Shown: positions 32,717-61,487 of the stretch, in pieces
Position numbering within the stretch: position 1 is the first letter of the stretch
Layout: every line of letters starts with the position of its first letter
Assembly: GCA_964512835.1 (NCBI GenBank)
Contig: CAZELA010000001.1
Coordinates: forward strand, 41,372-105,371
Reading direction: 5' to 3'
Source: an uncultured Candidatus Saccharibacteria bacterium
GTDB lineage: Bacteria; Patescibacteriota; Minisyncoccia; Phycocordibacterales; UBA2100
DNA length: 64,000 bases
Position numbers and translations under genes: made by a program
Notes under the pieces: model-generated
Told to the model about the DNA's origin: nothing
The model's database searches: none
The model's input: the letters and a program-made list of their open reading frames with translations, nothing else

Positions 32717-32756
32717 CAAACCGATCTGATCCGAAGATCGTATCGGGAAGCGAGAA

Positions 32757-33293: not shown

Positions 33294-33363
33294 GAGCTCG
33301 CACCCGCCCCCCCCTTTTTTTTCCAAAAGAAAAGGACGCAGGGCGGAAGGCGGGTGCGAGCTC
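33294..33363. repeat. 15-bp perfect inverted repeat (gagctcgcacccgcc / ggcgggtgcgagctc) around a C8-T10 homopolymer loop
   Basis: Arms at 33294-33308 and 33349-33363. Loop contains cccccccc-tttttttttt. Adjacent direct repeat gacgcagggcggaagg at ~33199 and ~33336. Confidence 0.5.
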
Positions 33364-33530
33364 CAAAAAGTGAAAGTCTTATGTGAGTGCCGCCGCCCTC
33401 CGCGCTGCGTCCTTTATCGAAGCTGGGGTAAGCGTAGCATCGTGGCTGTGTTTTACAATCCTTTCCGCTCGGGCTTCGTACTGCGCCGCTTCATGTATTT
33501 TGGGGGCTTTTTGGGGTAGGATGGGCACTT

Positions 33531-36056
<2,526 letters not shown>

Positions 36057-36148
36057 AGCCGTATCTCGGCATCCGAGCTCGCCATATATTGTGCGATATC
36101 TCGGATAGGAAGATGTATCTCGGCAATCTACTAGATACTTAGTTTGGT

Positions 36149-36176
36149 GAGCGGCGGTCAGCAGACCGTCGCTTTT
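36149..36176 (+). terminator. Putative intrinsic terminator after secA
   Basis: agcggcggtc-agca-gaccgtcgct stem (1 mismatch) followed by tttt. Confidence 0.4.
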
Positions 36177-36327
36177 GATCTGCAGGTAGTCCTGAACACT
36201 CGCCTTGCGAGGCGTACGCGATACGTGTGGGAGTAGGGTAGAAGGCGGGCGCCGTGCGATGGGTGCCTCGTTCGAGCCGGGAGCCGGGGTTGTGGAGTGC
36301 GGGGGAAGCATCTGGTACAGTTCGGCG

Positions 36328-39305: not shown

Positions 39306-42300
39306 ATGTCCGAAGAACATTATTTCGAAGGCATCAAATTCGTTGCGGCAGCTGACGCTGCCGCAACGTTTGGTTTTAAGCGTGACTACATCGGGATTCT
39401 GTGCAGAACGAAAAAAGTTAACGGACGTCGTATCGGACGCAATTGGTATGTAGATGAGAACTCGCTCAAATCTTTTTTAGTGTCTCAAGAACATGCGCGC
39501 GCGCAGCGACGATTGGATCTTGCAGCCCAGAGATCTCAAGAATACAGAAATGCTCATACGCCTGAATCAGCGCCTGCAATCTTGCCTCCCACGGAGCAGA
39601 AGGCCAGCCCGGTGGTTAAGGCGACCGCGGCCTTCACGGCAGCCACGATCGCTTCGTTGCCGAGTGTGGCTGATGCAAGAACGGTTTTTGAAAAGGCGAA
39701 CGCTATAACACAAAAGTCGGCAGAGACGGCGATAGCGCACGGTACACGGGTTGTCGAAAAAACGATGGACGGTATTCGGATTCCTGCCGGCGCATCGCTT
39801 GAAGTGGTCCGCACTTCGATCCAGGCATCCGCTGCACACGCGCCCATCTACGCTGCCACGCCGTTTAGTGAACTCGTGCATAAAGCTTTTGCGCTCACAC
39901 TCGCATTCGTTCTCACGTTCGGCACGTACTCGCTCGTGGATCCCACATACGCACGGGTTGCGTTTACCACGGTGAAAGATTCGGCGAACAATATTTCGCT
40001 GGGAGTTGAACAGTTAAGCGCATTCGTTTCGAATCCGCGCTTGTCCGTTTCGTTTGCTGATGTAAACCCCGCTGCCGTCGCGTCCTCGCTTTCCGGTTCT
40101 GTTCCTTCGTTTGCAGAGAAGTTGGCGCGCGGTATTAATGCGTCGATTAATAATTTCGTTTTCGCGGTCGCGTTTCCGGGATACGTGTACGGCACGCCGG
40201 CAACGCCGCACATGAACCGAGGAACTGTTGCGGTGCAGGTCGTTCCGCAGGGGCGAGTCACTCCCGGCACGAGCGAATCTCCGGTTCGAGAGCCGGTGGC
40301 CGTGGGCACCGGGGCTCCTGCGCAGACGACGGTCATTACAAATCCCATTCGCGAACGGGTAGTTGAAAGGGAGCGCGTTGTTATAGCGGGCGGTATAACA
40401 GAGGAGGCGCTTACCGCTCGATTGCAGGCGCTCGAAAATGCGCTCTCTGCAAGACTCTTCGGCCTTACAAGTGCTAATTCAACGGCGATTGCTCAGAACT
40501 ACAACGTAATTGCACAAACGAATCGCATCGACGTGCTCAACGGTGTCGACATCAGCGGTTCGACGTTTAGCGGTGGAACGATATCGAACACGACCATCAG
40601 CAACGCGACAATCTCAAACGCATCGCTTTCAGGCACGACTACACTCGGCTCGCTCAGCGTAACGGGTAATGGGACCACGACCTTCTCGGGGGGGATCGCA
40701 GTCACCGGAGGCTGCATCACGGTGAACGGTACATGCTTGGGTGCCGGTGGCGCCGGCAACCCGGGCGGCTCTGCGGGACAAGTGCAGTTCAACGACGGGG
40801 GTGTATTCAACGGCGCGGCATCATTTACGTTTAATACGGCGACAGGTGTGGTTGCGGCCACGGGTGTTTCCACAACGGTCGCAACGTCAACGAACATGAT
40901 TGCGGTTAATGCAACGTCGACGAATCTCTTTTCGTCGATTGCACGATTTAATTCCGCGATCATCGACACGCTTGTATCATCCGCAACCACCATCACGAAT
41001 TTGGTGGCGACGAACTCGACGACGACGAATCTGAATATCTCCGGCACAGTTTCAGGTGCGGGTCTCGCATCGTGCTCGGGTGTAGGGGAGAAGCTGTTGT
41101 ACAACGCGGCTACGCGCCAGTTCACCTGCGGTACGGATCTCGATTCCGGAAGCAGCGGCTTCTCGACGACAAGTACACAGTATTTCTCGTCGGTCGGACT
41201 CGCGTTCTCGACCACCTCGAGTGACTACTGGCTTACAACGAAGAACATCACGGCATTCTCTACCACATCGGCTGATTACTGGAAAACGCAGAATAACTTT
41301 CATTCGACGACATCGTTTGCCTACGATCTTTCGACATACAGCCTCGGTTCGTTCTTTTCGACGACCTCGGTCGCGTATTGGGATTCGACACAGTTCCGCT
41401 GGGCTACGACGTCTACCGACGCGTGGCTTGCTACCAAGACGACCGATCAGCTTACCGAAGGGGTTACGAATCGCTACTACTCCAATGCGCTCGTAAACGG
41501 CTTTATTGCAGGATCATCGTCGATTCCGAAGACGTTTGCCAATAACACATTTACCGGCGGAAACACATTTACCGGATCGACCACGCTCGCGAACGCCACC
41601 TCCACCTCCTTCAACACCAACCTCCTCGGCATCGGCGGTACCTCGTACTTCTCATCACTCACCGGTAACGGCCTCCAGAACGTAGGCGGTGCACTCACCG
41701 TCAACCAGGGCCAAGCCTTCTCCACGACATCGGTCGCATTCTGGGACTCCACCCAGGCACGATGGGCAACGACGTCCACCGACTACTGGAAGACCCAGAC
41801 CAACTTCTACTCCACGACATCTGCTGACTACTGGAAGACGCAGAACAACTTCTTCTCCACCACAAGCGCATCCGCGTTCCTCACCCTCAACCAGGGCAAT
41901 GCGTTCTCAACCACATCAATCGCATACTTCGTCTCCAACGGTCTCGCATTCTCCACCACCTCCGCCGACGCATACCTCTCGCTCAACCAGGGTCTCGCAT
42001 TCTCGACAACCTCCGCAGCCTTCCACCTCTCGACCTACGACAAGGGCTCGTTCTTCTCCACGACATCAGTGAACTACTGGGAGGGAACGCAGAGCCGCTG
42101 GGCAACCACATCGTCTGATGCGTGGCTCGCCACCAAGGACAAGGGCTACTTCTTCTCGACCACGTCGGCCCAGAACTTCCTTGCACAGAACACCGGTGCC
42201 GCATTCTCCACCACCTCAGCATCCTTCTTCTCATCCGTCGGTCTCGCATTCTCGACGACATCCGCGTCGTACTTCCTTGCGCAGAATGACTCGTCGTTCT

Positions 42301-54300: not shown

Positions 54301-57300
54301 GTACCACCACACTCTCTGGCTTGAACATCGCAGGCTCAGCAACATCGACATCAAATGTAGGCTTCAACATCACTTCCGGCTGCTACGCAGTAAACGGCAC
54401 GTGTCTCACGGCGGGAGGCAGCTCCGCATCCTCTACACTCCTCGCAGACTTCAATACATTCACAAACAGTCAGCAATTTAAGGGCGGACTTCTCTCGTTC
54501 GCGTCCAGCACAATCGGTAACGGCACTGCGACGGATGGACTCACCATCTCCGGTGGTGCGACCACAACAGGGAATGCGTACTTCGGCGGCATCATCGGTT
54601 TGAACCCACTTCTCAGCGCGTCTTCGACCATCTTTAGTTTGGGCGGCCGCGCGTTCCTCTCTGGTACTACATCGTCAGTTGCAAATACATCCGGCGGGAA
54701 TACATTCCTCGGCCTTGATTCAGGCAGCAATATCACAAAGGGCTTCCAAAACACTGCGCTCGGATATCAGGCACTTCAGTTTGCCACCTCGACGTCGGAC
54801 AACGTTGCAATCGGCTACGAGGCGCTCAGTGGCAGCAGTTTGAGCGGTGGCGGTAACGTCGCCATCGGTACATCTGTGCTCGCGGCTAACACCACCGGTG
54901 TTTCCAACGTAGGGTTGGGATCTGCAGCGCTACTCGGGAATACGATCGGGTCATACAACTTCGCATTGGGCGCGCAGACATTGCAGAACAACGTAAACGG
55001 TTTTGATAACCAGGCGATCGGTAACTTCAACATGTTCTCGAACGTGTCCGGAAGCTCGAACCTCTCGATGGGTTCTGCGGCGCTCAGCGCAAGCGTAACC
55101 GGAAATAACAACGTTGCGCTCGGATTTGGTGCGTCAGACAACAACCGTTCGGCTACGAGTACCATCGCAATCGGTTCAAATGCTGCCGCAGGACCGGTGT
55201 CGTACTTCAACCAGGGCGGCACAGTAATTGGATATCAGGCGGGCTTTAGCTTCGCCACGAGCTCCGACTTCAACACATTGATTGGATATCAAGCGGGCTA
55301 TGGGATAACCAACGGCAGCAACAACATCGTGATTGGCACCGCAACATCGTCGACTGGTGTAAACAACATCACCAGCGGATCGCAAAACATCCTCATCGGA
55401 AACAACATCGGACTCCCGTCAGCGACCGCCAATGGCCAGCTTAATATCGGTAATACAATCTTCGGAACGGGCCATACAAACACGGGCACCACACTCTCGG
55501 TCGGGAACATCGGCATCGGCACAAGTTCGCCGCTGTCTGCACTATCTCTTCAGAAAAACTTTGGTGCTACTACCACAAATCTCTTCTCCATTGCTTCATC
55601 AACAAACGCCGCGGGTACTACCAACACATCCATCTTCTCCATCGGCAACACCGGCTCCACCACCATTGCAAACGGCGTAAACATTACCGCGGGCTGCTAC
55701 GCAGTCAACGGCACCTGTCTCTCGATTGGTGGTAGCTCTGCGTCATCGACACTCCTCGCAGACTTCAATACCTTCACAAACAGCCAGCAATTTAACGGCG
55801 GACTCCTCTCGTTCGCGTCCACCACTATCGGCAACGGCTCTGCAATCGGAGGCCTTACGATCTCAGGTGGTGCGACGACGACGGGACTCTCAATTCTTCA
55901 GGGAGGTATCTTCTCACTTGCGTCATCAACTATCGGTGCAGGTGGTGCAACAACGGGGCTCACTATCTTTGGTGGAGCCACAACCACCGGCAATGCCTAC
56001 TTCGGCGGTCTGCTGAGTGTCGGCTCGACGACGCCGTTTGCAAAACTCGCACTTAGCCTTACCAGCACCGAAACAAATGCAAACGCACTCTTGATCGCCT
56101 CGTCAACGGCAAACATTTTCAGCGTAAATAACAGGGGCCAGGTCGGCATCGGTGGCACCACCGCTACGTCGTCGATTGCACAGTTCTCGATCTTCCCGTC
56201 GGCAGGCAGCAGCACAATTCAGCGTATTGCATCGACCACATTGTCACAGGCAGCGTTCGATATCGTGGTCCAGGGCCGATATGCATATATTCCAATCAAC
56301 GCGGGCGCAGCGTTCGAGATCTGGGATGTATCGAATCCGGAAAATCCGGTTCGCATGTCTCAAACGAGCACGAGCAACAATCTTCAGGGAATTGCCGTGC
56401 AGGGCAACTACGCATACACGTCGGGTACTACCGCAGCAAATGGCCTCCAGGTGTGGGATATCTCGAATCCGCGCTCACCGATCTTGCTTGCAACAAAGAC
56501 CACAAATGCTGCTGTTGTGGGGATTGCCACCCAGGGGAACTACGTATACTTGGCTGATTTCAATGGAGGCTCGAACATCGCAAATAACTTCGAGATCTGG
56601 GATGTCAGTGATGCGGACAATCCGGTACGCGTCGGCCAAGGATCACTTGCTTCAACTCCGCACGACGTGAAGGTAGTGGGTAAGTATGCATATTTCGTCG
56701 GCTACAATACCTCGAACAACTTCGAGATCTGGGACATTTCAAATCCGTCATCGCCCGCCCGCGTCTCGGCATCCGCTACGACTGTCGATTACTACACAGT
56801 CGATGTGCAGGGTAGGTACGCGTACCTCGCTAACTCGTTCTCCCCAACGTTTGAAATTTGGGATATCTCGAATCCTGTGTCTCCTGTGCGCATGAGTTCG
56901 CCTGTAACGAACATGCTCACGGTGCAGGTAAAGGCGGCAGGTCGCTATGCATACGTCCTTGGTGGTGCAAATTCTACAAACGCGCTTGAAGTATGGGATG
57001 TGTCCAGCACAACGGCTCCGTATCGCGTCACGCAGCAGTCGCTCTTTGGCGGATCGGGTCAGAACCTCGCAGTGTCGGGGCGCTATGCGTACACCGTGAG
57101 CAGTAACGCGACGCGCAACTTCGAAATCTGGGATCTCGGTGGAGCCTACATCCAGCAGCTCGAAGCTGGTGTGCTCGAGGCCGGACACTTGGTGCTGCGA
57201 AAGGATCTCGTAGCAGACAACGGTAAGTTCCTCACGGGCCTCACGGTGGGCAATGGTTTGAATGTGAACGGCACGCTGAGTCTTACTGCTTCAGCTGGTA

Positions 57301-60300
57301 ACGCGACCACGACAGCAAGTCAAGGCTTCTCGATCTTCTCGGTGCGCAGCGCATCATCGAGCGCGCCGTTCTTGAACGCGCTCTACAACGGTAATATCGG
57401 CATCGGTACCACGAGCCCGCTCTCGGCGCTCTCGATCCAGAAGAACTACGGTGCAACCACCACGAACCTGTTCTCCATCTCGTCGTCGACGATTGCCGGC
57501 GGCACCACGAACAGCGCACTGTTCACGATCAGCAACACCGGCTCCACTACTGCGGCCAACGGATTCAATATCACCGCAGGCTGCTTCGCGGTGAACGGCA
57601 CATGCTTGGGTAGCGGTAGCAGTGCATCGTCTACATTGCTCGCCGACTTCAACGTGTTTACCAATCGTCAGCAGTTCAATGGCGGACTGCTGGCGGCAGC
57701 GTCGAGCACTATCGGTGCGGGAGGTACAGGAACAGGACTCACGGTCTCTGGTGGTGCTACCACAACCGGCCTCTCGGTACTGCAGGGCGGTATCCTCTCG
57801 ATAGCATCGTCTACGATCGGCGCAGGTGGCGCCGGTACCGGCCTCACCATTTTTGGCAGCGCCACCACTACATCGAACAGCTACACGGGCGGTTTCATCG
57901 ACACGTCTGCCTCAGCGGGCGGGTTTAAGATGGGAGGAATTCTTCTCGGTTACGCTTCCAGTACAAATCTCGGGACGTTCTTCGGATATGCGGCAGGAGG
58001 CCAAAATGCCACAACAAGTAGTGCCGCGAATAATACATCAGCCTTCGGCTATCAGGCGTTGTCGGGCAATAACACAGGTGTGCAGAATACCGGAATCGGC
58101 GCCGGTGCTTTGAAGGCAAATACGACAGGCACCGTTAACACCGCCGTCGGTTATCAAGGAATGCTCTCGAACACGACAGGCGCAAATAATACGTCTGCAG
58201 GCGGCGGCTCACTACAGAAAAGCGTAACCGGCGGCAACAATGTCGCGATAGGATATCAGGCGTCTCAGAGCAACCTCTCTGCGACGAATACAGTGGCAAT
58301 TGGCGCAAATGCTGCCTGCGGCAACTTCTCCGGCGGGTGTTCAAACTATGATGCGGAGGGCTATACCGTGCTCGGATACAACGCCGGCGCAAACTTCTTG
58401 AGCGGAGCCGACTACAACACGCTTATCGGCTACCAGGCCGGTGCAACGATCACTTCAGGCTACTCGAACATCATCCTCGGAAGTAACAATGCTTCGAGTC
58501 CGTTTCTCGCAGGTAATTTGCTAGGCGGCAGCGGCAACATTGGCATCGGCAACAATACGTACTTTGCTAACGGCAGTGCAAATAATCAGCTCAATATCGG
58601 GGGGCTCGTGATGGGTACATTGCCTGCCACTTCATCAGCGTTTGCATTGCCGACATCCGGCACCATCGGTATCGGGACGACGTCGCCGACCGCTAAGTTC
58701 GGTATCGCGATCAATAATGGCGATACGCTCCAGACGCTCTTCCAGATTTCATCATCGACTTCGAACTCAACCACTACATTGTTCTCGATCAGCAACACCG
58801 GTTCTACGACGATCGCCGGAATCTTGAACGTGGGAAGCGCATCCACAACGAATGTCTCTGCAACGAATGTATATACAAGCGCCCTCACGCTATCGAGTGT
58901 TGGCACGTGCAGTGGCGGCAGTGCGCTCCAGTCAACCGGCGGTGTCGTATCGTGCGGCGCAGTAACGATCTCCGGTGCTTCTGCCGGCGGCGGCTGGGTA
59001 GCGTCGAATAGCAAGATCATTCAGGCGACCTCGTCGGTACTCGTGGCAATGGGTGCAGCAACATCGACGCCCTATGCGCAGCTCACCGTCACATCCGGCG
59101 CGACAGCAACGACGACACTCGCGCTTCTTGCGGCGAGTGGTCAGACCTCGGATATCCTGCACATGTACAACAGCTCAGGCATCCTCTCCACAGTATTCAA
59201 TGCGGCAGGTCTCCTTGGTATCGGTACGTCAACGCCATTCGCAGACATCTCGATTCAGAACAACTATGGTTCTGTGGGAACCGTGTTCGAAATCGCGTCA
59301 TCCACGAACACTGCAGGCACAGCGACTGCGTCAATGTTCAGTGTCATGAGCAACGGCAATGTTGGTATCGGTACAAGCTCGCCGTGGGCAAAGTTGTCGG
59401 TCATCAGTAATGCTGCGAGCAACGAATATAGCCCGCTCTTCGTGGTTGCGACGTCATCGACGTGGAATAACGGCGGTCAATCACCGATTATCTACGCCTT
59501 TGCGACGACCACTGGCGCTCTCGACTTCGCGCGCGTCGCGATTGGCACCTCGACCGGATGGGGATCGGCGGGCATTCTTGATCAGTTGACCGTCGCAGGG
59601 CGTATCTACAGCACCTGGAAATATGCCTCCTGTGATTTCCCCGTGATGTCACAGGTAGCAGCGCTCACGGCGAATACACTTAACTTCTGCGGTCCGTTCG
59701 CATTCACTATCACCGGTACTACGGGCGGTACAACGATCGCGCCCGCTGCGGGCCAGGCGTGGAATCCGGGACAAGTCATACTCTCCACTGGTGCATCAGG
59801 AACTTCAGGCGCGGGAGCTTCGGTGCGATCAGTTGTACCGATTGCTGCGGCGACGTCGAGTCCTGTTATCGAGGCGGTTGTTCGACCCGACATGACCAAT
59901 GCAACATCGTCGATGCTGCTGATCGGTTTCAACGGGCAGTATAGCTCCGGACCCACTATCGGCTCTGAACCCAGCACGTTCGTCGGTTTCGTTGCTTCGA
60001 CGACTAACGCGAACTGGTTTGCCCTGGTACGAAATGGAGGGAACCGAACCACTCCCGTTGATACCGGATTCGCGTCAACGACGAATGTCACGGGGCTTTC
60101 AGCGGCGCGGCGAATGCGCGTCGAAGTGACGCCCTCGGAGGCACGCTTCCTTATAAATGGTAATGTGGTTGCGCGAATAACAACAAACATTCCGTCCGCG
60201 GATCTTGCACCGCATATGTCCATCGCGAACGCGATAAAGTCAGGTGGCCTCCGAATGACTCCTAACGTGGCAAAACTTGGCCTCAGTCAGATACGTGTAT

Positions 60301-61487
60301 GGGTGGACGATCCACCCGGTGAGTTCTCAGGTGAGAGTTCACCTGGGTCGGGATCGGGTGAGCCAGCCGAAAACTACGAATGGGTGAACGGCGCCGATAT
60401 ATCCACCGCATACTTCGCCGACAATGGAGAGGAAATAGGGAAATCGTACGGCAAGCTGATATCAATCGACGACTCGGCGACGACGACCGTAAAGATCACG
60501 GATCATGCTTACGACCAAAAATTGATGGGCGTTCTCACGATGAGTTCACAGGTTACGCTTGGAACACAGTATAAGTCGACAGTTCGAGTCGCTACTGCAG
60601 GGCGAGTTCGTGTGAGTGTGTCCGACGAAAACGGGGCAATTGCAGTGGGCGATCCTATTACATCAGGCACGATAGTAGGTCTCGGAATGAAGGCTACCCG
60701 CCCCGGTCAAATAGTGGGACGAGCGCTCGAAGCCTACGATCCGCTACAGCCGAATACGACATGCGGATTCATCGACATTTCGATGCAGCATTGCCAAGCT
60801 GAGATTCTGATTGCACTTAGCCCGTCGTTCAACATGAACGTGTCATCGATGGCGGACGTAGCGTTCGCAGATCTCACTGATGCGATGACCTACTTGGCAA
60901 GCACCACCGAGGCTACTGTGGGTGATCTTGGTGCAGTTGTCTTCGGTCAAATCACCGCAAAGGTTGCGATTGTCAAAGACTTCTTCGCAGACAAGATCTT
61001 TGCGAACCGTGTCGAAACCAAGGAGCTCTGCGTCGAAGATGTCTGCGTAACCAAGGCACAATTCCTCAACATGGTGCAGGCTGCGAGCGCCGGTGCTGCT
61101 ACAGGAGGCACGGGGAGTAGTGGCGGATCCGGAAGCGGTGACACAGGGGGTGGTGATGCGGCAACGAGCACGCCCGATACAGAAGCCCCTGTAATTTCGG
61201 TTGTTGGTGCGAATCCCGCGCTCATCAGTGTCGGTGATACCTATTCAGATCTAGGGGCAACTGCGCTCGATAATGGCACGTATACGCTGCCTGTTATGGC
61301 GTCGCTCGACGGGGGACCGCAGATGGATTCTGAGCTTATTCAGCTCGACACATCTGCTGCCGGCGAACACACCATTACCTACACTTCGACCGATACTTCC
61401 GGCAATGTAGGCACCGCTACCCGTACCGTCATCGTAAATGCACCTTCGTTCGGTGGCGCGGAAGCTGGCGGTGAACAGGGTCTATAG
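39306..61487 (+). CDS. Giant (7,393 aa) repeat-rich cell-surface protein
   Basis: Single uninterrupted 22,182-nt ORF. Order of parts: N-terminal HTH_17-like motif, TM helix (~aa 190-215), >100 x 16-aa FSTTSxxYW repeats, eight NITAGCFAVNGTCL two-Cys modules, three G-x-x-A-x-G beta-helix (Hep_Hag/tail-fibre-like) regions, two LVIVD propeller blocks, a jelly-roll-like region, and a DUF5011 Ig-like C-terminus. Confidence 0.8.
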   Translation: MSEEHYFEGIKFVAAADAAATFGFKRDYIGILCRTKKVNGRRIGRNWYVDENSLKSFLVSQEHARAQRRLDLAAQRSQEYRNAHTPESAPAILPPTEQKASPVVKATAAFTAATIASLPSVADARTVFEKANAITQKSAETAIAHGTRVVEKTMDGIRIPAGASLEVVRTSIQASAAHAPIYAATPFSELVHKAFALTLAFVLTFGTYSLVDPTYARVAFTTVKDSANNISLGVEQLSAFVSNPRLSVSFADVNPAAVASSLSGSVPSFAEKLARGINASINNFVFAVAFPGYVYGTPATPHMNRGTVAVQVVPQGRVTPGTSESPVREPVAVGTGAPAQTTVITNPIRERVVERERVVIAGGITEEALTARLQALENALSARLFGLTSANSTAIAQNYNVIAQTNRIDVLNGVDISGSTFSGGTISNTTISNATISNASLSGTTTLGSLSVTGNGTTTFSGGIAVTGGCITVNGTCLGAGGAGNPGGSAGQVQFNDGGVFNGAASFTFNTATGVVAATGVSTTVATSTNMIAVNATSTNLFSSIARFNSAIIDTLVSSATTITNLVATNSTTTNLNISGTVSGAGLASCSGVGEKLLYNAATRQFTCGTDLDSGSSGFSTTSTQYFSSVGLAFSTTSSDYWLTTKNITAFSTTSADYWKTQNNFHSTTSFAYDLSTYSLGSFFSTTSVAYWDSTQFRWATTSTDAWLATKTTDQLTEGVTNRYYSNALVNGFIAGSSSIPKTFANNTFTGGNTFTGSTTLANATSTSFNTNLLGIGGTSYFSSLTGNGLQNVGGALTVNQGQAFSTTSVAFWDSTQARWATTSTDYWKTQTNFYSTTSADYWKTQNNFFSTTSASAFLTLNQGNAFSTTSIAYFVSNGLAFSTTSADAYLSLNQGLAFSTTSAAFHLSTYDKGSFFSTTSVNYWEGTQSRWATTSSDAWLATKDKGYFFSTTSAQNFLAQNTGAAFSTTSASFFSSVGLAFSTTSASYFLAQNDSSFSTTSADYYKSQNNFFSTTSASAFAANGLAYSTTSADFWLSTKSLSAFSTTSADFWQTQRNFFSTTSASAWSAVGLGHSTTSFAYNLSTYDKGFFFSTTSVNYWEGTQSRWATTSSDYWLSTKNISAFSTTSAEYYAQASSSIAKTFANNTFTGTNSFQNVTATQATSTWFFASTASTTNSYATNATTSVMYVGTFAGAGLTSCSGSSDKLLWNATTRQFQCGADAGAGGGITALGAQFSSVQTGSAQTFATTSDTNIGLTIVSSGDTHTFSPTWTGTLAGSRGGTGIGTVSQNGLLIGGAGNTWAQVSTSSLGISTTNLVEGSNLFYTDGRVQTYLNGVNKTFFFATSSADYWLTQQNISAFSTTSADYWKTQNNFHSSSSFAYNLSTYDKGFFFSTTSVNYWEGTQSRWATTSAAYFLSQNQGNAFSTTSADYYKSQNNFFSTTSASYFASTGLAYSTTSSDFWLSTKSLSAFSTTSADFWQTQRNFFSTTSASAWSAVGLGHSTTSFAYNLSTYDKGFFFSTTSVNYWEGTQSRWATTSSDAWLATKSTTNLAEGSNLYYTSARATSSFIALLGATTTDALTEGTNNKYYTDARVNSYIAGSTTIPKTYTTNTFTGTNSFQNITATGATTTSLSTGIASTSLLFVSNTTNALLNTSASGQVQATTFSGPLSFTGGQLTITQANGAGQNGYLASTDWTSFNSRLSTSSLVIAAGQGLAFSTTSSDYWKTQNNFFSTTSASAFAANGLAFSTTSSDYWLTTKSLTGFSTTSAAYFASLGLAYSTTSTLADLTTYNKGFFFSTTSASAFAANGLAFSTTSADFWASTGRAYSTTSANYWSSVGLGFSTTSSNYWSSLGLGHSTTSVAYQLTQPVILGNATSTTFFATTASTTNFYSNSSRFGSSTIGSLTLVGTTTGANGINIAAGCFAINGTCVGTNQATNVGFDFTPNTYGTTPSNSTSTLIGFTAGIYSVASSTIGGGAQGSGLTIFGGATTTGSQRIGGDLIVLGNATTTNFFATIASSTNLNAQSASFVSAAINSATLAGGSLSGTFTGSPTFSGNPTFSGLPIFSSGFLSVASTTIGNGTAIGGLTISGGATTTGALTVVGTTRLNSTLTLDTAIACTGASALQTDGSGHVVCGAISIGGSSTAGGWTTNNTGRVSLSTTTDMVVVGASSSPYAKLTVMSGGAATTTLALVAASGQTANILDIYGPSGSINSAFTAAGNFGLGTSTPGAKFAIVGNDGDSNINLFQISSSTGGVATEQLTFTNKGFLGIGTAAPTYPLEVVASRNAGQSLVKLQNTHSFGVTGFELFNSAGTKSAVFGWGNSNESVYPDTAFIGSTSNMPFVLLAGNAERIRLNPDGNVGIGQSNPSTTLDVGGTTTATAFIAYDTVNASQFTYASTTAVSANSLYTSNLRVSGTLTQTGGATSSLSNGLSIAAGCFSVNGTCVPLANDGTFSTTSASYFSSLGLAYSTTSTLADLTTYNKGFFFSTTSASAFAANGLGFSTTSNNYWSSVGLGFSTTSANYFLNSTTSTGFSTTSANYFLSQNQGNAFSTTSANFWSSAGLGFSTTSENYYKSQNNFFSTSSASFFASNGLAFSTTSSDYWLTTKSLTGFSTTSAAYFASLGLAYSTTSTLADLTTYNKGFFFSTTSASAFAANGLAFSTTSSDFWASTGRAYSTTSANYWSAVGLGFSTTSSNYWSSLGLGHSTTSVAYQLTQPVILGNATSTTFFATTASSSNLFTNTATVGSLTGGTGTFSGTLTANGGITLGGALTAAGNNVTGIGTASTSNLTVSNIQNSILSTGATGGVVAATISSPLQFSGGALSIQVANGTQNGYLSSTDWTSFNSRLSTTTLGLFDKGYFFSTTSASAFAANGLAFSTTSSDYWLTTKSLTGFSTTSASYFSSLGLAFSTTSSDYWKTQNNFFSTTSASAFAANGLAFSTTSANFWSSVGLGHSTTSVAYQLTQIPVMTNGFTAFASSTIGNGTATGGLTVSGRATTTSNAYFNGLLSIGSSTPNALLSIMQKYGNTNTSLFEIGSSTSATGATGSQYLTVLSSGDVGINTSTPSARLSIAGTTATVTGASAPLALYVQGGNGAGGSPGGVGGGISLVGGNGGQTGLGLAGNGGTITLKAGQSGGGSIANQYLNPSQLTVSTQNISLTAGTGLTGNDPGGSINLTTGSADFGAIAGSFNFYGGSSTSAGGDFNFIGGFATSTSATARGGNFSVTAGSGATTSLNGVASGGNVILNAGAKSLGGGSNGSILLGNVLGNVGVGGTSSPFALLTVFASSTATGFNNTPFAIASSSGTATTTLFTVSNTGSTTIANGVNITAGCFAVNGTCLSAGDGTFSTTSASYFSSLGLAFSTTSTDYWKTQNNFFSTTSNNFWSSVGLGFSTTSANYFLNSTTSTGFSTTSANYFLSQNTGNAFSTTSSDFWASTGRAYSTTSANYWSAVGLGFSTTSSNYWSSLGLGHSTTSVAYQLTQPVILGNATSTTFFATTASSSNLFTNTATVGSLTGGTGTFSGTLTANGGITLGGALTAAGNNVTGIGTASTSNLTVSNIQNSILSTGATGGVVAATISSPLQFSGGALSIQVANGTQNGYLSSTDWTSFNSRLSTTTLGLFDKGYFFSTTSASAFAANGLGFSTTSNNYWSSVGLGFSTTSANYFLNSTTSTGFSTTSENYYQNSSSTVVTAYKTNTFTGTNSFQNITATGATTTSLSTGIASTSLLFVSNTTNALLNTSASGQVQATTFSGPLSFTGGQLTITQANGAGQNGYLASTDWTSFNSRLSTSSLVIAAGQGLAFSTTSSDYWKTQNNFFSTSSASFFASNGLAFSTTSTDYWKNQNNFYSTTSANFWAAQGLAFSTTSNNYWSSVGLGHSTTSVAYLLTQTPAMTNGFTAFASSTIGNGTATGGLTINGGATTTGDSNVGGFLHLNSTTGGIKIDGNYFLTTNTSVGSTLLGAGAGGAATSSAINYTTAFGYNALNRLAAGGVANAAFGFRALEYNTTGDFNVAVGNEALGVVTTGSNNIGVGFNAGGAITTGGDNVVVSFNGGVTGITTGSFNTVLGNSAANSMSAGGSNVAVGYQALYASANSSSSVAVGRAAGGNNSAASSTTYIGYRAGVGTGAHTSQGSVAFGALAGASFATGSDFNTLLGFGAGSAITGGARNILLGASETASNLTTGYENIGIGSNIFFPTASSNLHLNIGNLILGTLPATTTGWKLPTTGTIGIGTTSPTARFGIALNNGGTLTTAFQISSSTANATTTLFSIGNTGSTTAANGFNITAGCFAINGTCLSTGADGTFSTTSASYFSSLGLAYSTTSTLADLTTYNKGFFFSTTSASAFAANGLAFSTTSVAYQLTQTPVFTNGFTAFASSTVGGGTAISGLTISGGATTTGNAYFGGNIGVGTTSPFSLFALSANNGTNYPGNNLFVISSSTSNSTVNHFAIDNVGRVTVGTNVGSTTGQFAVMAGATTIQFASTISTGLNTPYSVSVQGRYAYVANNGNNTLVTFDVSNPATPVQVSSVTAGISSPVFVSAQGRYAYVVNNGNNAIVTYDISNPAAPVQIASITTGLSVPTAAAIQGRYLYVSSFSNNALVIFDISNPAAPVQIASITSGLSNPRSVTVQGRYAYVNSGGNSALVIFDISNPVSPIFVSSITTGLNTPYYTVSVQGRYAYVVSNGNNALVIFDVSNPVSPVQVSSITGNLNGPRAASVQGRYAYVASGNNNALVTFDISNPTVPVQVSTVTTGLSGPRAITVQGRYAYVASGGNSSLVTFDLGGAYIQQLETGGLETGTLAVRNGIQAMDATLWGSLIVGRSLNVGGTGTFLTYNYSATSSNPNAASSTALSATGIDSNTAGISDVLSVTHYSTSTSVAGTGTGLLFNDTTLCSLANCVNSTTTATSTARIASVLTNVSTTSPTSDLAFFTKNSANGLNEWLRLTSAGSLGLGTSTPTAKFSIFNQFGGTSATLFSIASSTNVAGSTNTSFLSVSSTGFGTTTLSGLNIAGSATSTSNVGFNITSGCYAVNGTCLTAGGSSASSTLLADFNTFTNSQQFKGGLLSFASSTIGNGTATDGLTISGGATTTGNAYFGGIIGLNPLLSASSTIFSLGGRAFLSGTTSSVANTSGGNTFLGLDSGSNITKGFQNTALGYQALQFATSTSDNVAIGYEALSGSSLSGGGNVAIGTSVLAANTTGVSNVGLGSAALLGNTIGSYNFALGAQTLQNNVNGFDNQAIGNFNMFSNVSGSSNLSMGSAALSASVTGNNNVALGFGASDNNRSATSTIAIGSNAAAGPVSYFNQGGTVIGYQAGFSFATSSDFNTLIGYQAGYGITNGSNNIVIGTATSSTGVNNITSGSQNILIGNNIGLPSATANGQLNIGNTIFGTGHTNTGTTLSVGNIGIGTSSPLSALSLQKNFGATTTNLFSIASSTNAAGTTNTSIFSIGNTGSTTIANGVNITAGCYAVNGTCLSIGGSSASSTLLADFNTFTNSQQFNGGLLSFASTTIGNGSAIGGLTISGGATTTGLSILQGGIFSLASSTIGAGGATTGLTIFGGATTTGNAYFGGLLSVGSTTPFAKLALSLTSTETNANALLIASSTANIFSVNNRGQVGIGGTTATSSIAQFSIFPSAGSSTIQRIASTTLSQAAFDIVVQGRYAYIPINAGAAFEIWDVSNPENPVRMSQTSTSNNLQGIAVQGNYAYTSGTTAANGLQVWDISNPRSPILLATKTTNAAVVGIATQGNYVYLADFNGGSNIANNFEIWDVSDADNPVRVGQGSLASTPHDVKVVGKYAYFVGYNTSNNFEIWDISNPSSPARVSASATTVDYYTVDVQGRYAYLANSFSPTFEIWDISNPVSPVRMSSPVTNMLTVQVKAAGRYAYVLGGANSTNALEVWDVSSTTAPYRVTQQSLFGGSGQNLAVSGRYAYTVSSNATRNFEIWDLGGAYIQQLEAGVLEAGHLVLRKDLVADNGKFLTGLTVGNGLNVNGTLSLTASAGNATTTASQGFSIFSVRSASSSAPFLNALYNGNIGIGTTSPLSALSIQKNYGATTTNLFSISSSTIAGGTTNSALFTISNTGSTTAANGFNITAGCFAVNGTCLGSGSSASSTLLADFNVFTNRQQFNGGLLAAASSTIGAGGTGTGLTVSGGATTTGLSVLQGGILSIASSTIGAGGAGTGLTIFGSATTTSNSYTGGFIDTSASAGGFKMGGILLGYASSTNLGTFFGYAAGGQNATTSSAANNTSAFGYQALSGNNTGVQNTGIGAGALKANTTGTVNTAVGYQGMLSNTTGANNTSAGGGSLQKSVTGGNNVAIGYQASQSNLSATNTVAIGANAACGNFSGGCSNYDAEGYTVLGYNAGANFLSGADYNTLIGYQAGATITSGYSNIILGSNNASSPFLAGNLLGGSGNIGIGNNTYFANGSANNQLNIGGLVMGTLPATSSAFALPTSGTIGIGTTSPTAKFGIAINNGDTLQTLFQISSSTSNSTTTLFSISNTGSTTIAGILNVGSASTTNVSATNVYTSALTLSSVGTCSGGSALQSTGGVVSCGAVTISGASAGGGWVASNSKIIQATSSVLVAMGAATSTPYAQLTVTSGATATTTLALLAASGQTSDILHMYNSSGILSTVFNAAGLLGIGTSTPFADISIQNNYGSVGTVFEIASSTNTAGTATASMFSVMSNGNVGIGTSSPWAKLSVISNAASNEYSPLFVVATSSTWNNGGQSPIIYAFATTTGALDFARVAIGTSTGWGSAGILDQLTVAGRIYSTWKYASCDFPVMSQVAALTANTLNFCGPFAFTITGTTGGTTIAPAAGQAWNPGQVILSTGASGTSGAGASVRSVVPIAAATSSPVIEAVVRPDMTNATSSMLLIGFNGQYSSGPTIGSEPSTFVGFVASTTNANWFALVRNGGNRTTPVDTGFASTTNVTGLSAARRMRVEVTPSEARFLINGNVVARITTNIPSADLAPHMSIANAIKSGGLRMTPNVAKLGLSQIRVWVDDPPGEFSGESSPGSGSGEPAENYEWVNGADISTAYFADNGEEIGKSYGKLISIDDSATTTVKITDHAYDQKLMGVLTMSSQVTLGTQYKSTVRVATAGRVRVSVSDENGAIAVGDPITSGTIVGLGMKATRPGQIVGRALEAYDPLQPNTTCGFIDISMQHCQAEILIALSPSFNMNVSSMADVAFADLTDAMTYLASTTEATVGDLGAVVFGQITAKVAIVKDFFADKIFANRVETKELCVEDVCVTKAQFLNMVQAASAGAATGGTGSSGGSGSGDTGGGDAATSTPDTEAPVISVVGANPALISVGDTYSDLGATALDNGTYTLPVMASLDGGPQMDSELIQLDTSAAGEHTITYTSTDTSGNVGTATRTVIVNAPSFGGAEAGGEQGL
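44140..44510 (+). repeat. ~370-bp near-identical internal duplication (second copy at 50395-50770)
   Basis: Both copies encode NTFTGTNSFQNITATGATTTSLSTGIASTSLLFVSNTTNALLNTSASGQVQATTFSGPLSFTGGQLTITQANGAGQNGYLASTDWTSFNSRLSTSSLVIAAGQGLAFSTTSSDYWKTQNNFFST. The antisense ORFs 44129-44344 and 50387-50602 differ by one residue. Confidence 0.75.
47299..47895 (+). repeat. ~600-bp near-identical internal duplication, copy 1
   Basis: Nearly base-for-base identical to 49596-50192 (offset ~2297 nt). The antisense 114-aa ORFs at 47399-47743 and 49694-50038 are identical in the ORF track. Confidence 0.8.
49596..50192 (+). repeat. ~600-bp near-identical internal duplication, copy 2
   Basis: See 47299-47895. 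Only scattered single-base differences (e.g. gcatcGaccgg vs gcatcCaccgg). Confidence 0.8.
52750..53690 (+). repeat. LVIVD-type beta-propeller block 1 (8 x ~43-aa blades)
   Basis: Blades of the form QGRYAYVANNGNNTLVTFDVSNPATPVQVSSVTTGLSxP. G-x-YAYVA...L-V-I/T-F-D-I/V-S-N-P is the LVIVD repeat consensus. Block ends with LVTFDLGGAYIQQLETGGLETG. Confidence 0.65.
56250..57185 (+). repeat. LVIVD-type beta-propeller block 2 (7 blades)
   Basis: FEIWDVSNPENPVRMSQ, LQVWDISNPRSPILLAT, FEIWDISNPSSPARVSA etc. Ends with FEIWDLGGAYIQQLEAGVLEAG, the same terminal motif as block 1. Confidence 0.65.
61180..61440 (+). other. C-terminal DUF5011-like Ig-fold domain of the giant protein
   Basis: EAPVISVVGANPALISVGDTYSDLGATALDNGTYTL...HTITYTSTDTSGNVGTATRTVIV matches the DUF5011/HYR-like bacterial Ig pattern (APVItl.G.npv.v.vG..Y.D.GatA.D..dG). 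Preceded by a Gly/Ser linker. Confidence 0.5.

What the first reader, a model, noticed from the sequence alone, without database searches (positions are those of the whole stretch)
39306..61487. 22.2-kb single ORF: membrane-anchored 7,393-aa modular surface protein of unrecognised overall family
One uninterrupted reading frame occupies a third of the window. Its modules are individually recognisable (LVIVD propellers, Hep_Hag/tail-fibre-like beta-helices, DUF5011 Ig domain, jelly-roll-like region). They are embedded in a super-repeat architecture (16-mer STTS arrays + two-Cys module + beta-helix) that I cannot assign to any described adhesin, S-layer or RTX/trimeric-autotransporter family. It starts with a cytoplasmic-looking HTH_17-like motif and a TM helix rather than a signal peptide, and ends without an LPXTG, C-terminal secretion or choline-binding motif. 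It also sits directly after a ~32-kb glycan locus. An HTH-like head, a single TM helix and a giant Ser/Thr-rich ectodomain together suggest a novel type of anchored, probably heavily glycosylated, envelope fibre or adhesin.
Basis: partly seen in the sequence, partly recalled or inferred. Interest (0 to 1): 0.85.

Follow-up and report, generated by a model that had tools for sequence, protein, structure and literature searches.

The report
Giant membrane-anchored phage-fibre-like surface protein
A real 22-kb gene from a Kaiserbacteria-like ultrasmall bacterium encodes a 7,393-residue surface fibre, held in the membrane by an unusual DNA-binding-type head plus one membrane helix and built from modules also found in phage fibre genes; it belongs to a conserved, so far undescribed family and is probably used to grip other cells.

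Summary
The ORF is real: 39306-61487 (+), 7,393 codons, no internal stop. Independent assemblies reproduce both ends.

It is not an orphan. Its N-terminal 400 aa consist of an HTH_17 head, one conserved membrane helix, a stalk and a short coiled coil. This region defines a family found in 41 Patescibacteria genomes (Kaiserbacteria/Paceibacterota). The gene almost always sits in the same order: Wzy_C/TPR, secA, gatB, a small 2xHTH_17+TM paralogue, then the giant gene.

Ectodomains differ widely between these positional orthologues, from 929 aa to more than 3,700 aa. The window's ectodomain is assembled from phage-fibre-type parts:
- about 90 copies of a 15-18-aa "FSTTS" repeat. It has no Pfam or PDB match, but it occurs in about 100 other proteins, three of which I located inside phage head-tail gene clusters;
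- three tailspike-like beta-helix regions;
- two seven-bladed LVIVD propellers;
- a concanavalin-A-like domain;
- probably a domain resembling the phi29 gp12 C-terminal auto-chaperone;
- a terminal Ig-like domain.

My best reading is an N-in/C-out anchored, probably trimeric, glycan-binding attachment fibre of an episymbiont. Glycosylation and the role of the HTH head remain untested.

Novelty: a new variant of a known kind (giant patescibacterial surface proteins). Interest: about 0.6.

The parts
39306..61487 (+). Giant ORF, 7,393 aa
   Evidence: Uninterrupted frame. aa 1-1712 are collinear at 88% identity with the independent contig L003, with identical repeat counts in the arrays. aa 6863-7393 are 99.8% identical to P0258 from a JGI contig.
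39306..39485 (+). Cytoplasmic HTH_17-type head (aa 1-60)
   Evidence: Window copy: HTH_17 E=0.03, 15 bits. 37 of 40 family N-termini hit PF12728 at E<=0.01. 39-42% identical to the two HTH_17 modules of the upstream gene.
39486..39884 (+). Variable cytoplasmic linker (aa 61-193)
   Evidence: Poorly conserved and variable in length among homologues. 24 K+R against 19 D+E in aa 1-192.
39885..39938 (+). Single TM segment (aa 194-211, AFALTLAFVLTFGTYSLV)
   Evidence: Top hydropathy window of the whole protein (1.82). The same segment, with an FGTY motif, is the top window in all 38 homologues scanned.
39939..40505 (+). Conserved extracellular stalk with heptad-like segment GGITEEALTARLQALENALSARL (aa 212-400)
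   Evidence: Invariant columns in the 3-sequence alignment. Matched end to end in many of the best profile hits, 144 of which score E<=1e-30. The same ERVVE...GG(I/V)(T/S)E..L..RL..LE.KL stalk occurs in P0016 and P0023, which lack the HTH head. The heptad spacing was read from the sequence.
41142..52385 (+). Zone containing the 12 FSTTS repeat arrays, interleaved with QNGYLSSTDW modules, Cys-pair modules and G-rich beta-helix-like stretches (aa 613-4360)
   Evidence: Arrays and periods. Consensus F-S-T-T-S-A-x-(Y/F)-(W/F)-x-x-x-G-L-x. Shared with 106 database proteins. No Pfam or PDB hit for a 45-aa profile. AF2 on aa 2690-2990 gave pLDDT 34.
51114..51704 (+). Tailspike-like beta-helix region 1 (aa 3937-4133)
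   Evidence: phrog_4636 'tail spike protein', E=1.9e-11.
52743..53705 (+). LVIVD seven-bladed beta-propeller 1 (aa ~4480-4800)
   Evidence: PF08309, E=6e-42. Seven QGRY.YV blades followed by the DLGGAYIQQLE motif. phrog_22523.
54453..55262 (+). Tailspike-like beta-helix region 2 (aa ~5050-5319)
   Evidence: phrog_4636 E=7e-19; phrog_23837 and phrog_6002 'virion structural protein' E~1e-14.
56223..57200 (+). LVIVD seven-bladed beta-propeller 2 (aa ~5640-5965)
   Evidence: PF08309 E=1.5e-28. TIGR04312 choice-of-anchor B, sub-threshold. Seven blades plus the DLGGAYIQQLE motif.
58170..58496 (+). Tailspike-like beta-helix region 3 (aa 6289-6397)
   Evidence: phrog_4636 E=4.8e-7.
59697..60302 (+). 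Concanavalin-A-like (lectin/glucanase-fold) domain (aa ~6798-6999)
60399..60833 (+). Beta-barrel domain, possibly a phi29 gp12 C-terminal (auto-chaperone)-like fold (aa ~7032-7176)
61197..61436 (+). Terminal Bact_surface_Ig-like (DUF5011) domain (aa 7298-7377)
   Evidence: PF16403, 39.8 bits against 27. pLDDT about 90.
37828..38772 (+). Conserved upstream partner gene: 2xHTH_17 plus a C-terminal TM helix (314 aa)
   Evidence: PF12728 E=2.8e-7, two stretches. TM at aa 246-264 with about 50 aa beyond it. Present immediately upstream of the giant gene in most of the fetched loci that have upstream sequence.
30178..37758 (+). Syntenic neighbours: Wzy_C+TPR (30178-32412), secA (33531-36056), gatB (36205-37758)
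   Evidence: Pfam. Same order in most of the 41 related loci.

Best explanation
The gene encodes the window organism's version of a conserved, lineage-specific envelope fibre of Kaiserbacteria/Paceibacterota (Patescibacteria, also called CPR).

Anchoring and topology. The protein is a bitopic membrane protein with its N-terminus inside and C-terminus outside. About 190 aa stay in the cytoplasm and start with an HTH_17 (excisionase/MerR-type) head. One conserved helix (aa 194-211) crosses the membrane. The remaining roughly 7,180 aa are exported; Sec is assumed, since there is no cleavable signal peptide.

Ectodomain. Outside the membrane, a conserved stalk and a short coiled coil are followed by a lineage-variable concatenation of modules of the kind phages use for fibres and tailspikes:
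- FSTTS 15-18-residue repeat shafts;
- Cys-pair knots;
- tailspike-like beta-helices;
- two LVIVD propellers;
- a distal concanavalin-A-like domain;
- a gp12-C-like barrel, where other family members carry Peptidase_S74;
- a terminal Ig-like domain.

Inferred mechanism. Three chains probably register at the C-terminal auto-chaperone-like domain and at the N-terminal coiled coil, and fold into a long trimeric fibre. The lectin-fold tip and the propellers would then bind glycans or surface structures on a host or partner cell. On this reading the fibre does for an episymbiont what a receptor-binding fibre does for a phage. Module shuffling with the phage gene pool would retune its specificity.

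Shown versus inferred. Shown: the ORF, the family, the synteny, the domain identities and the phage context of related modules. Inferred: topology, trimerisation, C-terminal processing, the binding function, glycosylation, and any role of the HTH head and its 2xHTH partner.
For: - ORF integrity, and independent recovery of both ends.
- 41 related loci, all Patescibacteria, in the order Wzy_C/TPR-secA-gatB-2xHTH/TM-giant.
- Head and TM segment conserved; ectodomain length 929 to >3,700 aa and module content very different between positional orthologues.
- A profile of the head region finds 144 representatives at E<=1e-30, up to 3,958 aa long.
- HTH_17 at family level.
- All 17 Cys pairs lie after the TM segment.
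- FSTTS modules are shared with 106 proteins. P0003, P0004 and P0005 lie between capsid and tail genes of phage or prophage contigs.
- PHROG tailspike / virion-structural hits.
- Peptidase_S74 occurs in related proteins and in a head-family member, P0154, at the position of the window's barrel domain.
- The gp12 and K1F C-terminal domains are trimerisation auto-chaperones that are cleaved after folding (PMC3357383).
- Very large surface proteins inferred to mediate host contact are already reported in other Patescibacteria (PMC11809585; PMC13059738).
Against: - There is no experimental or expression evidence.
- aa 1713-6862 are seen only in this assembly. Repeats of up to 668 bp at 98% identity exist, so copy number and length could be mis-assembled.
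- AF2 gave no usable model for the FSTTS shaft (pLDDT 34), so 'fibre' and 'trimer' are inferences.
- The gp12-like assignment rests on one predicted model and on hits whose query range was not printed. A sequence profile of that domain finds nothing in the PDB.
- No match in cultured-phage genomes by tblastn.
- The phage-encoded FSTTS proteins begin with signal-peptide-like segments. This is odd for virion parts and leaves their own role open.
- The ConA fold is equally compatible with an enzyme (GH16/PL7) as with a lectin.
- No dedicated TM or signal-peptide predictor was run.
Confidence: 0.6

Rival explanations
1. The fibre is a depolymerase or predatory weapon rather than an adhesin. On this view the tailspike-like beta-helices and the GH16/PL7-fold domain are enzymes that cut the host's capsule or cell-wall glycans, as phage tailspikes do, and as has been proposed for giant genes of predatory Omnitrophota.
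Against: Sequence identity to any enzyme is 5-15%. No catalytic residues were checked. L-type lectins and the SraP adhesin module match about as well. There is no Pfam hit to any hydrolase or lyase family.
Confidence: 0.12
2. The protein is a membrane-tethered one-component regulator, ToxR/CadC-like in logic. The ectodomain would sense contact and the HTH_17 head, with its 2xHTH partner, would bind DNA to change transcription.
For: A DNA-binding-type head on the cytoplasmic side of a single TM helix, strongly conserved, including the TM sequence (FGTY). A conserved paralogous 2xHTH+TM gene next door.
Against: A 7,000-aa ectodomain that varies from 929 to more than 3,700 aa between orthologues is an unlikely sensor. 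No operator, DNA-binding data or regulated genes are known. RodZ shows that an HTH head on a bitopic protein can instead bind a protein (my own knowledge, not tested). This role could coexist with the fibre role.
Confidence: 0.1
3. The protein is a non-adhesive structural coat, an S-layer-like or mucin-like glycoprotein scaffold. On this view the Ser/Thr-rich repeats are mainly carriers of O-glycans made by the neighbouring locus.
For: 29% Ser+Thr. Three PMT_2-type GT-C genes, NeuB/CMP-transferase genes and a syntenic Wzy_C+TPR gene upstream.
Against: The same FSTTS repeats occur in phage-encoded proteins of Proteobacteria, without this locus. Aromatic and Gly-Leu positions are as conserved as the STTS positions, which suggests a folded repeat. 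One gene copy with a single anchor fits a fibre better than a lattice. Distal lectin-fold and propeller domains suggest binding.
Confidence: 0.1
4. The gene is real but its length is an assembly artefact: the internal order or copy number of repeats is wrong, or two genes are fused.
For: Near-identical internal repeats (668 bp at 98%, 446 bp at 95%, 511 bp at 90%). Most related contigs break soon after the repeats begin. No listed family member exceeds 3,958 aa.
Against: The frame stays open for 22 kb. A related strain assembled independently shows the same array structure through aa 1712, with essentially no indels in the arrays. The C-terminal 531 aa are recovered separately. Orthologues longer than 3,700 aa run off the fetched flank on long contigs.
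Confidence: 0.08
5. The gene is a prophage or mobile-element tail-fibre gene that happens to lie here.
For: Phage-type modules. An IS200-like Y1 transposase about 1 kb downstream.
Against: The gene occupies the same chromosomal slot after secA-gatB in most of the 41 related loci, which come from different MAGs. Its head is conserved, and no phage genes flank it in the window.
Confidence: 0.02

Closest known systems
Phage receptor-binding fibres and tailspikes with C-terminal intramolecular chaperones (phi29 gp12 appendage; K1F endosialidase / Peptidase_S74 fibres; T5 pb1)
   Same: Modular repeat shaft followed by beta-helix regions that match PHROG tailspike families. A distal lectin-fold domain like those in many phage RBPs in BFVD. 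A predicted domain resembling the gp12 C-terminal fragment. Relatives carry Peptidase_S74. FSTTS modules are shared with genes inside phage head-tail clusters.
   Different: The gene is chromosomal, in a fixed slot, and not part of a virion gene set. The protein has an N-terminal HTH head and a TM anchor instead of a virion-attachment domain. It is 5-10 times longer. It has no S74 domain of its own. There is no sequence match to cultured phages.
Serine-rich repeat adhesins of Gram-positive bacteria (SraP/GspB type)
   Same: A giant Ser/Thr-rich surface protein with a lectin-fold binding module. SraP's ligand-binding region is the top Foldseek PDB hit. The gene lies near secA and a large glycosylation locus.
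   Different: No long KxYKxGKxW-type signal peptide, no LPXTG, and no SASA-type dipeptide repeats. The repeats here are 15-18-aa aromatic-containing units. The adjacent secA carries all four canonical SecA Pfam domains and is 57-97% identical across the loci, so it appears to be the housekeeping copy. An accessory SecA2/Y2 system was neither seen nor tested.
Trimeric autotransporter adhesins (YadA/Hia)
   Same: The sequence shows N-x-A-(I/V)-G-x-x-A-L type repeats reminiscent of YadA-head/Hep_Hag repeats. Both are presumed trimeric fibres with coiled-coil segments.
   Different: Hep_Hag, YadA_stalk and YadA_anchor are not detected. The anchor is N-terminal and in the cytoplasmic membrane, not a C-terminal outer-membrane barrel.
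Bitopic HTH-TM proteins (RodZ; ToxR/CadC-type membrane-bound regulators)
   Same: A cytoplasmic helix-turn-helix head, one TM helix, then an extracytoplasmic domain.
   Different: The HTH class differs: HTH_17 / excisionase-like, against Xre-type in RodZ and OmpR-type wHTH in ToxR (my own knowledge). The ectodomain is thousands of residues of fibre modules. No homology was tested or claimed.
Giant surface proteins reported in other Patescibacteria (Patescibacterium danicum >5,000-aa FhaB-domain proteins; Absconditicoccaceae large membrane proteins)
   Same: Very large, surface-targeted, without full-length homologues. Domain reshuffling and a host-attachment role have been proposed (PMC11809585; PMC13059738).
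   Different: Different domains: no FhaB, FN3, PKD or integrin hits here. Also a different anchor (HTH_17 head + TM), a conserved secA-gatB synteny and phage-fibre module content. None of these features appeared in the papers I retrieved.

Membership tests
HTH_17 (PF12728) domain family | Score at or above the Pfam gathering cut-off (27 bits) | tested here: inconclusive
   Window head: 15 bits, E=0.03, below the cut-off. The upstream paralogue scores 31.1 bits and is 39-42% identical to the head. 37 of 40 family N-termini hit at E<=0.01, best 6.3e-7. Membership therefore holds by homology, not by the window sequence's own score.
Patescibacterial 'HTH head - TM - stalk' fibre family (unnamed; defined here) | N-terminal MS(D/E)E..F.DG...RDY(I/V)..L.R head, the TM segment ...L(T)FGTY..VDP, and the stalk ERVVE...GG(I/L)(T/S)E..L..RL | tested here: met
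   Alignments A1 and A2. The TM segment is conserved in 38 of 38 homologues. Profile search.
Patescibacterial 'HTH head - TM - stalk' fibre family (unnamed; defined here) | Genomic slot downstream of secA-gatB-(2xHTH_17+TM gene) | tested here: met
   The window, and most of the 41 related loci that have upstream sequence.
LVIVD repeat beta-propeller (PF08309) | Pfam score above the cut-off; about 7 repeats of roughly 42 aa | tested here: met
   141 and 98 bits against 20.2. 7+7 blades.
Bact_surface_Ig-like / DUF5011 (PF16403) | Pfam score above the cut-off | tested here: met
   39.8 bits against 27.
Phage tail fibre with Peptidase_S74 intramolecular chaperone (PF13884) | C-terminal S74 chaperone domain | tested here: not met
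   No PF13884 hit in the window protein. It is present in relatives P0016, P0048, P0053 and others, and in head-family member P0154. A gp12-C-like fold may replace it.
Phage tail fibre / tailspike (as a virion component) | Encoded in a phage structural gene cluster | tested here: not met
   The neighbours are secA, gatB, a beta-lactamase-fold gene and glycan genes. The chromosomal synteny is conserved.
Trimeric autotransporter adhesin | Hep_Hag/HIM head repeats and a YadA_anchor C-terminal barrel | tested here: not met
   No Pfam hits at E<=0.1 for the whole protein or at E<=5 for the segments.
LPXTG sortase-anchored surface protein | C-terminal LPXTG, then a hydrophobic stretch, then a basic tail | tested here: not met
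   The C-terminus is ...NAPSFGGAEAGGEQGL. The only LPT(T/S)G strings are internal.
RTX / FhaB-type giant adhesins | HemolysinCabind nonapeptide repeats, or a TPS / haemagglutinin domain | tested here: not met
   No such Pfam or NCBIfam hits.
Serine-rich repeat protein (SRRP) adhesins | Extended signal peptide, SRR dipeptide-type repeats, LPXTG, and an accessory SecA2/Y2 locus | tested here: not met
   HTH head and TM instead of a signal peptide. 15-18-aa repeats. No LPXTG. Only one secA is visible in the window, and it carries all four canonical SecA Pfam domains. A second secA elsewhere could not be tested.
Concanavalin A-like lectin/glucanase fold | Jelly-roll beta-sandwich superposable on ConA-like structures | tested here: met
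phi29 gp12 C-terminal auto-chaperone fold | Structural match to PDB 3GQH; trimerisation and autocleavage | tested here: inconclusive

The most novel reading that the evidence does not exclude
Kaiserbacteria and their relatives have domesticated the phage receptor-binding-fibre toolkit into a core, chromosomally fixed host-recognition organelle. A trimeric fibre thousands of residues long would be assembled through a phage-type C-terminal auto-chaperone. It would be tethered by a conserved TM helix to a cytoplasmic DNA-binding-type head that, together with a paralogous 2xHTH membrane partner, couples surface contact to the chromosome or to gene expression. The FSTTS 15-residue unit would be a new fibre fold shared between phages and cells.
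Probability: 0.15. Interest if true: 0.85.

Novelty: new variant of a known kind. Interest (0 to 1): 0.6.

Why it matters
How ultrasmall Patescibacteria recognise and hold on to their hosts is largely unknown outside a few cultivated Saccharibacteria, where type IV pili are implicated.

This locus offers a concrete, conserved candidate for the large Kaiserbacteria/Paceibacterota branch. A single gene in a fixed chromosomal slot has a constant anchor and an ectodomain that is rebuilt from phage-fibre modules in each lineage.

If the reading is correct, it would:
- link phage receptor-binding evolution to episymbiont host range;
- provide a marker gene (the head region) for finding such fibres in fragmented metagenomes, where the repeats break assemblies;
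- define a widespread 15-residue repeat with no solved structure;
- provide an unusual HTH-TM anchoring module to test.

Tried and rejected
A 5,000-aa query timed out.
- A word-indexed search with the N-terminal 420 aa found only two fragments. The genome-contig scan and the profile search were needed to reveal the family.
- PDB sequence searches found nothing: both halves of the protein, the head profile (one chance hit), the FSTTS profile and the barrel profile. The barrel profile gave only an insignificant E=0.62 hit to the Aureispira grappling-hook protein GhpA.
- Pfam on ten unassigned segments at E<=5 gave nothing useful: a pentapeptide hit at E=0.039 and chance 'Microcin' hits on the repeats.
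- NCBIfam gave only sub-threshold propeller hits.
- tblastn of a 1,001-aa super-repeat against 50,697 phage records found no match.
- AF2 of aa 2690-2990 with an 11-row alignment failed (pLDDT 34).
- I considered whether the 15-residue FSTTS unit is an adenovirus-type triple beta-spiral (same period, G-L-x-F core; from memory). No sequence support was found, so I leave it as a lead only.
- Prophage origin is rejected on the basis of synteny.
- The context look-up for the Rhodopseudomonas protein P0017 failed.
- No tRNA or Rfam family is present in the window.
- Literature searches for this family (Kaiserbacteria + surface protein; HTH_17 + Patescibacteria; CPR + tail fiber) found no description of it.
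Full report
**1. The observation**

The window contains one uninterrupted frame at 39306-61487 (+), with an ATG start, 7,393 codons and a single terminal stop. The composition is extreme: T 14.9%, S 14.2%, G 11.9%, A 11.6% and N 7.7%, with only 5.8% charged residues after aa 420. The strongly negative GC skew across the gene probably follows from this amino-acid composition.

The start codon is validated by homology. Forty related N-termini begin with the same MS(D/E)E..F.DG motif.

Internal DNA repeats are diverged. The longest near-identical pair is 668 bp at 98%, followed by 446 bp at 95% and 511 bp at 90%.

Two independent pieces of public sequence reproduce the ends:
- L003 comes from a different study. 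It is 88% identical and collinear with aa 1-1712. There are essentially no indels inside the repeat arrays and one 48-aa indel in a non-repeat module.
- P0258, from a 2.6-kb JGI contig, is 99.8% identical to aa 6863-7393.

The middle of the protein (aa 1713-6862) is not independently confirmed.

**2.

Confirmed:
- Two LVIVD propellers, each with seven blades followed by an identical DLGGAYIQQLE motif.
- The terminal PF16403 Ig-like domain.
- The S(T/S)(T/S)S arrays: 12 arrays and about 90-100 units. The period is 15 in 59 units, 17 in 17 units and 18 in 10 units. The consensus is F-S-T-T-S-A-x-(Y/F)-(W/F)-x-x-x-G-L-x. Together they make up about 18% of the protein.
- The Cys-pair modules: CxxxNGTC eight times and C-x15-17-C four times. 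Of 35 cysteines, 34 form 17 close pairs, all downstream of the TM segment. This fits an extracytoplasmic location.
- A single hydrophobic segment at aa 194-211.
- No C-terminal LPXTG.

Corrected:
- Pfam does not detect Hep_Hag. The three N-x-A-I-G-rich regions instead hit PHROG tailspike and virion-structural families.
- The window's own HTH_17 score is below threshold.
- The gene is separated from the glycan locus by secA, gatB and a 314-aa gene.

The glycan locus itself (1-32.4 kb) is real. It contains GT1, GT2 and GT4 glycosyltransferases, a UDP-sugar dehydrogenase, epimerases, a DegT aminotransferase, a flippase, methyltransferases, an asparagine synthase, an MBOAT, three PMT_2-type GT-C proteins, NeuB with a CMP-transferase, and a Wzy_C+TPR protein.

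**3. The organism and the family**

A pattern scan of one genome per GTDB species, using the aligned N-terminal 400 aa, returned 41 loci. All are Patescibacteria, mostly Candidatus Kaiserbacteria, Paceibacterota or Parcubacteria.

In nearly every locus with enough upstream sequence the gene order is the same as in the window: Wzy_C/TPR, secA, gatB, a roughly 320-aa protein with two HTH_17 modules and a C-terminal TM helix, and then the gene with the HTH head. The secA copies are 57-97% identical across loci. The giant gene is therefore a positional orthologue in a conserved chromosomal slot, not a prophage gene.

Three regions are conserved across the family:
- the head, for which 37 of 40 N-termini hit HTH_17 at E<=0.01;
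- the TM segment, which carries an invariant-looking FGTY..VDP motif;
- the extracellular stalk, which ends in a heptad-like GGITEE.L..RL..LE..LS segment.

Everything after that is lineage-specific. Complete orthologues are 929, 1,600, 2,121, 2,145, 2,466 and 3,156 aa. Three others exceed 3,700 aa and run off the fetched flank. Most of the rest end where their contigs break.

FSTTS arrays occur only in the window's near relatives and a few others. Other orthologues use (G)IGT(T/S)SP-type modules and have different C-termini.

A profile of the head region, searched against 1.84 billion representative proteins, finds 144 hits at E<=1e-30 and 1,372 at E<=1e-10. The latter are mostly matches to the head alone. 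The longest listed hit is 3,958 aa. NCBI names some members only as 'helix-turn-helix domain-containing protein'.

**4. Where the ectodomain modules come from**

A 1,001-aa super-repeat (aa 2400-3400) finds 106 proteins of 550-1,750 aa that carry the same FSTTS units and accessory motifs (QNGYLSSTDW.SFNSRLST, LTEGSNLYYT, HSTTSVAYQLTQ).

- Most begin with a signal-peptide-like segment followed by a GGTG motif.
- Some begin with HTH heads.
- Several end in Peptidase_S74, the endosialidase-type intramolecular chaperone, with or without PF16403.

I examined the genomic context of four of them. Three lie inside phage structural modules, downstream of the capsid genes and followed by tail or other late genes:
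- P0005, in a Bradyrhizobium sp. ORS 285 prophage with portal, Mu-like protease, capsid and tail-tube genes;
- P0003, on a contig with portal, capsid, tail-tube and tape-measure genes;
- P0004, on a contig with terminase, capsid and an M23 lysin.

The fourth, P0008, lies in the same Paceibacterota MAG as orthologue L007, among unannotated genes.

The window's three beta-helix regions match PHROG tailspike and virion-structural families, and the propellers match a PHROG of unknown function. No cultured phage genome matches by tblastn. The FSTTS unit has no Pfam or PDB counterpart.

**5. The distal end**

AF2 on aa 6740-7393 with a 16-row alignment gave a mixed model with a mean pLDDT of 65. It contains three reasonably confident domains.

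- **aa ~6798-6999** is a concanavalin-A-like jelly roll.
  - The top Foldseek hit is the ligand-binding region of the staphylococcal serine-rich adhesin SraP.
  - Many phage proteins with ConA-like or Mtd-type tips match in BFVD.
  - This domain is homologous in sequence to the C-terminal ends of the phage-encoded P0003, P0006 and P0014.
- **aa ~7032-7176** is a well-predicted beta-barrel.
  - I assign those hits to this barrel by elimination, because the tools do not print query ranges. A sequence profile of the barrel finds nothing significant in the PDB.
  - The gp12 and K1F C-terminal domains are trimerisation auto-chaperones that are cleaved after folding (PMC3357383).
  - In relatives such as P0016, and in head-family member P0154, the equivalent position just before a Cys-containing helix and the terminal Ig-like domain is occupied by Peptidase_S74.
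- **aa 7298-7377** is the Ig-like domain.

AF2 on an FSTTS-containing stretch failed (pLDDT 34). That is what one would expect of an obligate oligomeric fibre, but equally of a shallow alignment.

**6. Most likely mechanism**

Shown:
- a conserved N-terminal HTH_17-type head, one TM segment, a stalk and a hypervariable ectodomain;
- paired cysteines only in the ectodomain;
- phage-type modules;
- a lectin-fold distal domain.

Inferred:
- The protein is inserted N-in/C-out as a signal-anchor protein, and the 7,180-aa ectodomain is exported, presumably by Sec.
- Three chains register through the C-terminal chaperone-like domain and the juxtamembrane coiled coil to form a long trimeric fibre.
- The ConA-like domain and the propellers bind surface glycans or structures on a partner cell.
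- Recombination among repeats and exchange with phage fibre genes diversify its specificity.

This matches what has been proposed in general terms for very large surface proteins in other Patescibacteria (PMC11809585, PMC13059738), but with a different anchor and domain set.

The role of the HTH head and of the conserved 2xHTH+TM partner is unknown. Candidate roles are an anchoring or organising module, binding of a protein partner (as RodZ does), or ToxR-like signalling.

O-glycosylation is plausible but untested. The supporting evidence is 29% Ser+Thr, three PMT_2 genes and a syntenic Wzy_C+TPR gene. The same repeats occur in proteobacterial phage genes, which argues that STTS is primarily a structural motif.

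**7. Rival readings and what I rejected**

The rival readings are listed in the rival explanations with their probabilities:
- a depolymerase or predatory function of the beta-helix and GH16/PL7-fold parts;
- a membrane-tethered regulator;
- a glycoprotein coat;
- inflation of the length by assembly error;
- a prophage gene.

The prophage reading is effectively refuted by the synteny. An assembly artefact cannot be excluded for the middle 5,000 aa without long reads.

**8. Novelty and score**

Giant, rapidly reshuffled surface proteins are already known as a phenomenon in Patescibacteria, so the kind is known. I did not find the following described in the searchable literature:
- this family as such;
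- its HTH_17-TM anchor with a paralogous partner gene;
- its fixed position after secA-gatB;
- the FSTTS repeat;
- the clear sharing of modules with phage fibre genes, including a gp12-like or S74 chaperone position.

I rate it a new variant of a known kind, with interest of about 0.6. It is a good, testable candidate for host recognition in a large uncultivated clade, but it has no functional data and its shaft structure is unresolved.

Noticed in passing
window 39341-39368 (+), inside codons 12-21 of the giant ORF: A perfect 12-bp stem with a 4-nt loop, followed by a T-rich run (terminator-like), lies 36 nt after the start codon. Predicted MFE is -26.6 kcal/mol for the 48-nt stretch. Close relatives (L003, L004, L006, L007) keep a strong hairpin at the same place with changes on both arms. 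Distant homologues have weaker hairpins or none. It could regulate translation or transcription, or it could be a by-product of the palindromic Ala-Ala-Asp-Ala-Ala codons.
   Followed up: partly
window 37828-38772 (+): A 314-aa protein with two HTH_17 modules and a C-terminal TM helix, leaving only about 50 aa outside. Its modules are paralogous to the giant protein's head (39-42% identity). It sits immediately upstream of the giant gene in nearly all related genomes, so it is a likely functional partner.
   Followed up: partly
window 62551-63231 (-); also L013, L016, L021, L026, L030, L032, L039, L042: An IS200-like Y1 transposase-domain gene (226 aa, PF01797 E=1.6e-6). Homologues at 32-42% identity lie at varying positions within the same secA-to-giant-gene neighbourhood in eight other genomes. 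This is a recurrent association.
   Followed up: no
window 8942-10453 (-), 14938-16323 (+), 22341-23483 (+), 30178-32412 (+): Three PMT_2-type GT-C (protein-O-mannosyltransferase/ArnT-like) genes and a Wzy_C+TPR gene lie in or at the end of the glycan locus. The Wzy_C+TPR gene is syntenic with secA and the giant gene in most related genomes. They are candidates for protein O-glycosylation, but this was not tested.
   Followed up: partly
loci L044 (10001-13840), L046 (10001-14926), L048 (10001-13618): FSTTS-repeat proteins lie in phage head-tail modules, yet they start with signal-peptide-like hydrophobic segments followed by a conserved GGTG motif. That is unusual for virion components, so their own role (virion fibre or exported protein) is open.
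   Followed up: partly
locus L047 (10001-14815), same MAG (GCA_043780835.1) as orthologue L007: A second, signal-peptide-bearing FSTTS protein (P0008, 1,604 aa) is encoded in a Paceibacterota genome, within a run of same-strand genes that mostly have no Pfam hits. This may be an unrecognised prophage or a surface-protein island.
   Followed up: no
window 38773-39305: A 533-nt spacer upstream of the giant gene with no ORF of 150 aa or more. It contains repeated GTGTCCGA(T) motifs just before the start codon. There is no sigma-70-like promoter match and no Rfam hit.
   Followed up: partly
window 61532-62509 (-): A Beta-lactamase2-fold (PF13354) protein with an N-terminal hydrophobic segment, convergent with the giant gene. 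The two stop codons are only 44 nt apart, and no terminator-like site lies between them.
   Followed up: no
window 32413-33530: A 1.1-kb stretch between Wzy_C/TPR and secA holds only a 135-aa ORF (33112-33519) with no Pfam hit. A similar gap separates the two genes in the related loci.
   Followed up: no
window 60399-60833 (barrel domain profile A6): The only PDB sequence hit, and not a significant one (E=0.62), was to repeated segments of the 5,898-aa grappling-hook protein GhpA of Aureispira, another giant surface protein used to catch prey.
   Followed up: no
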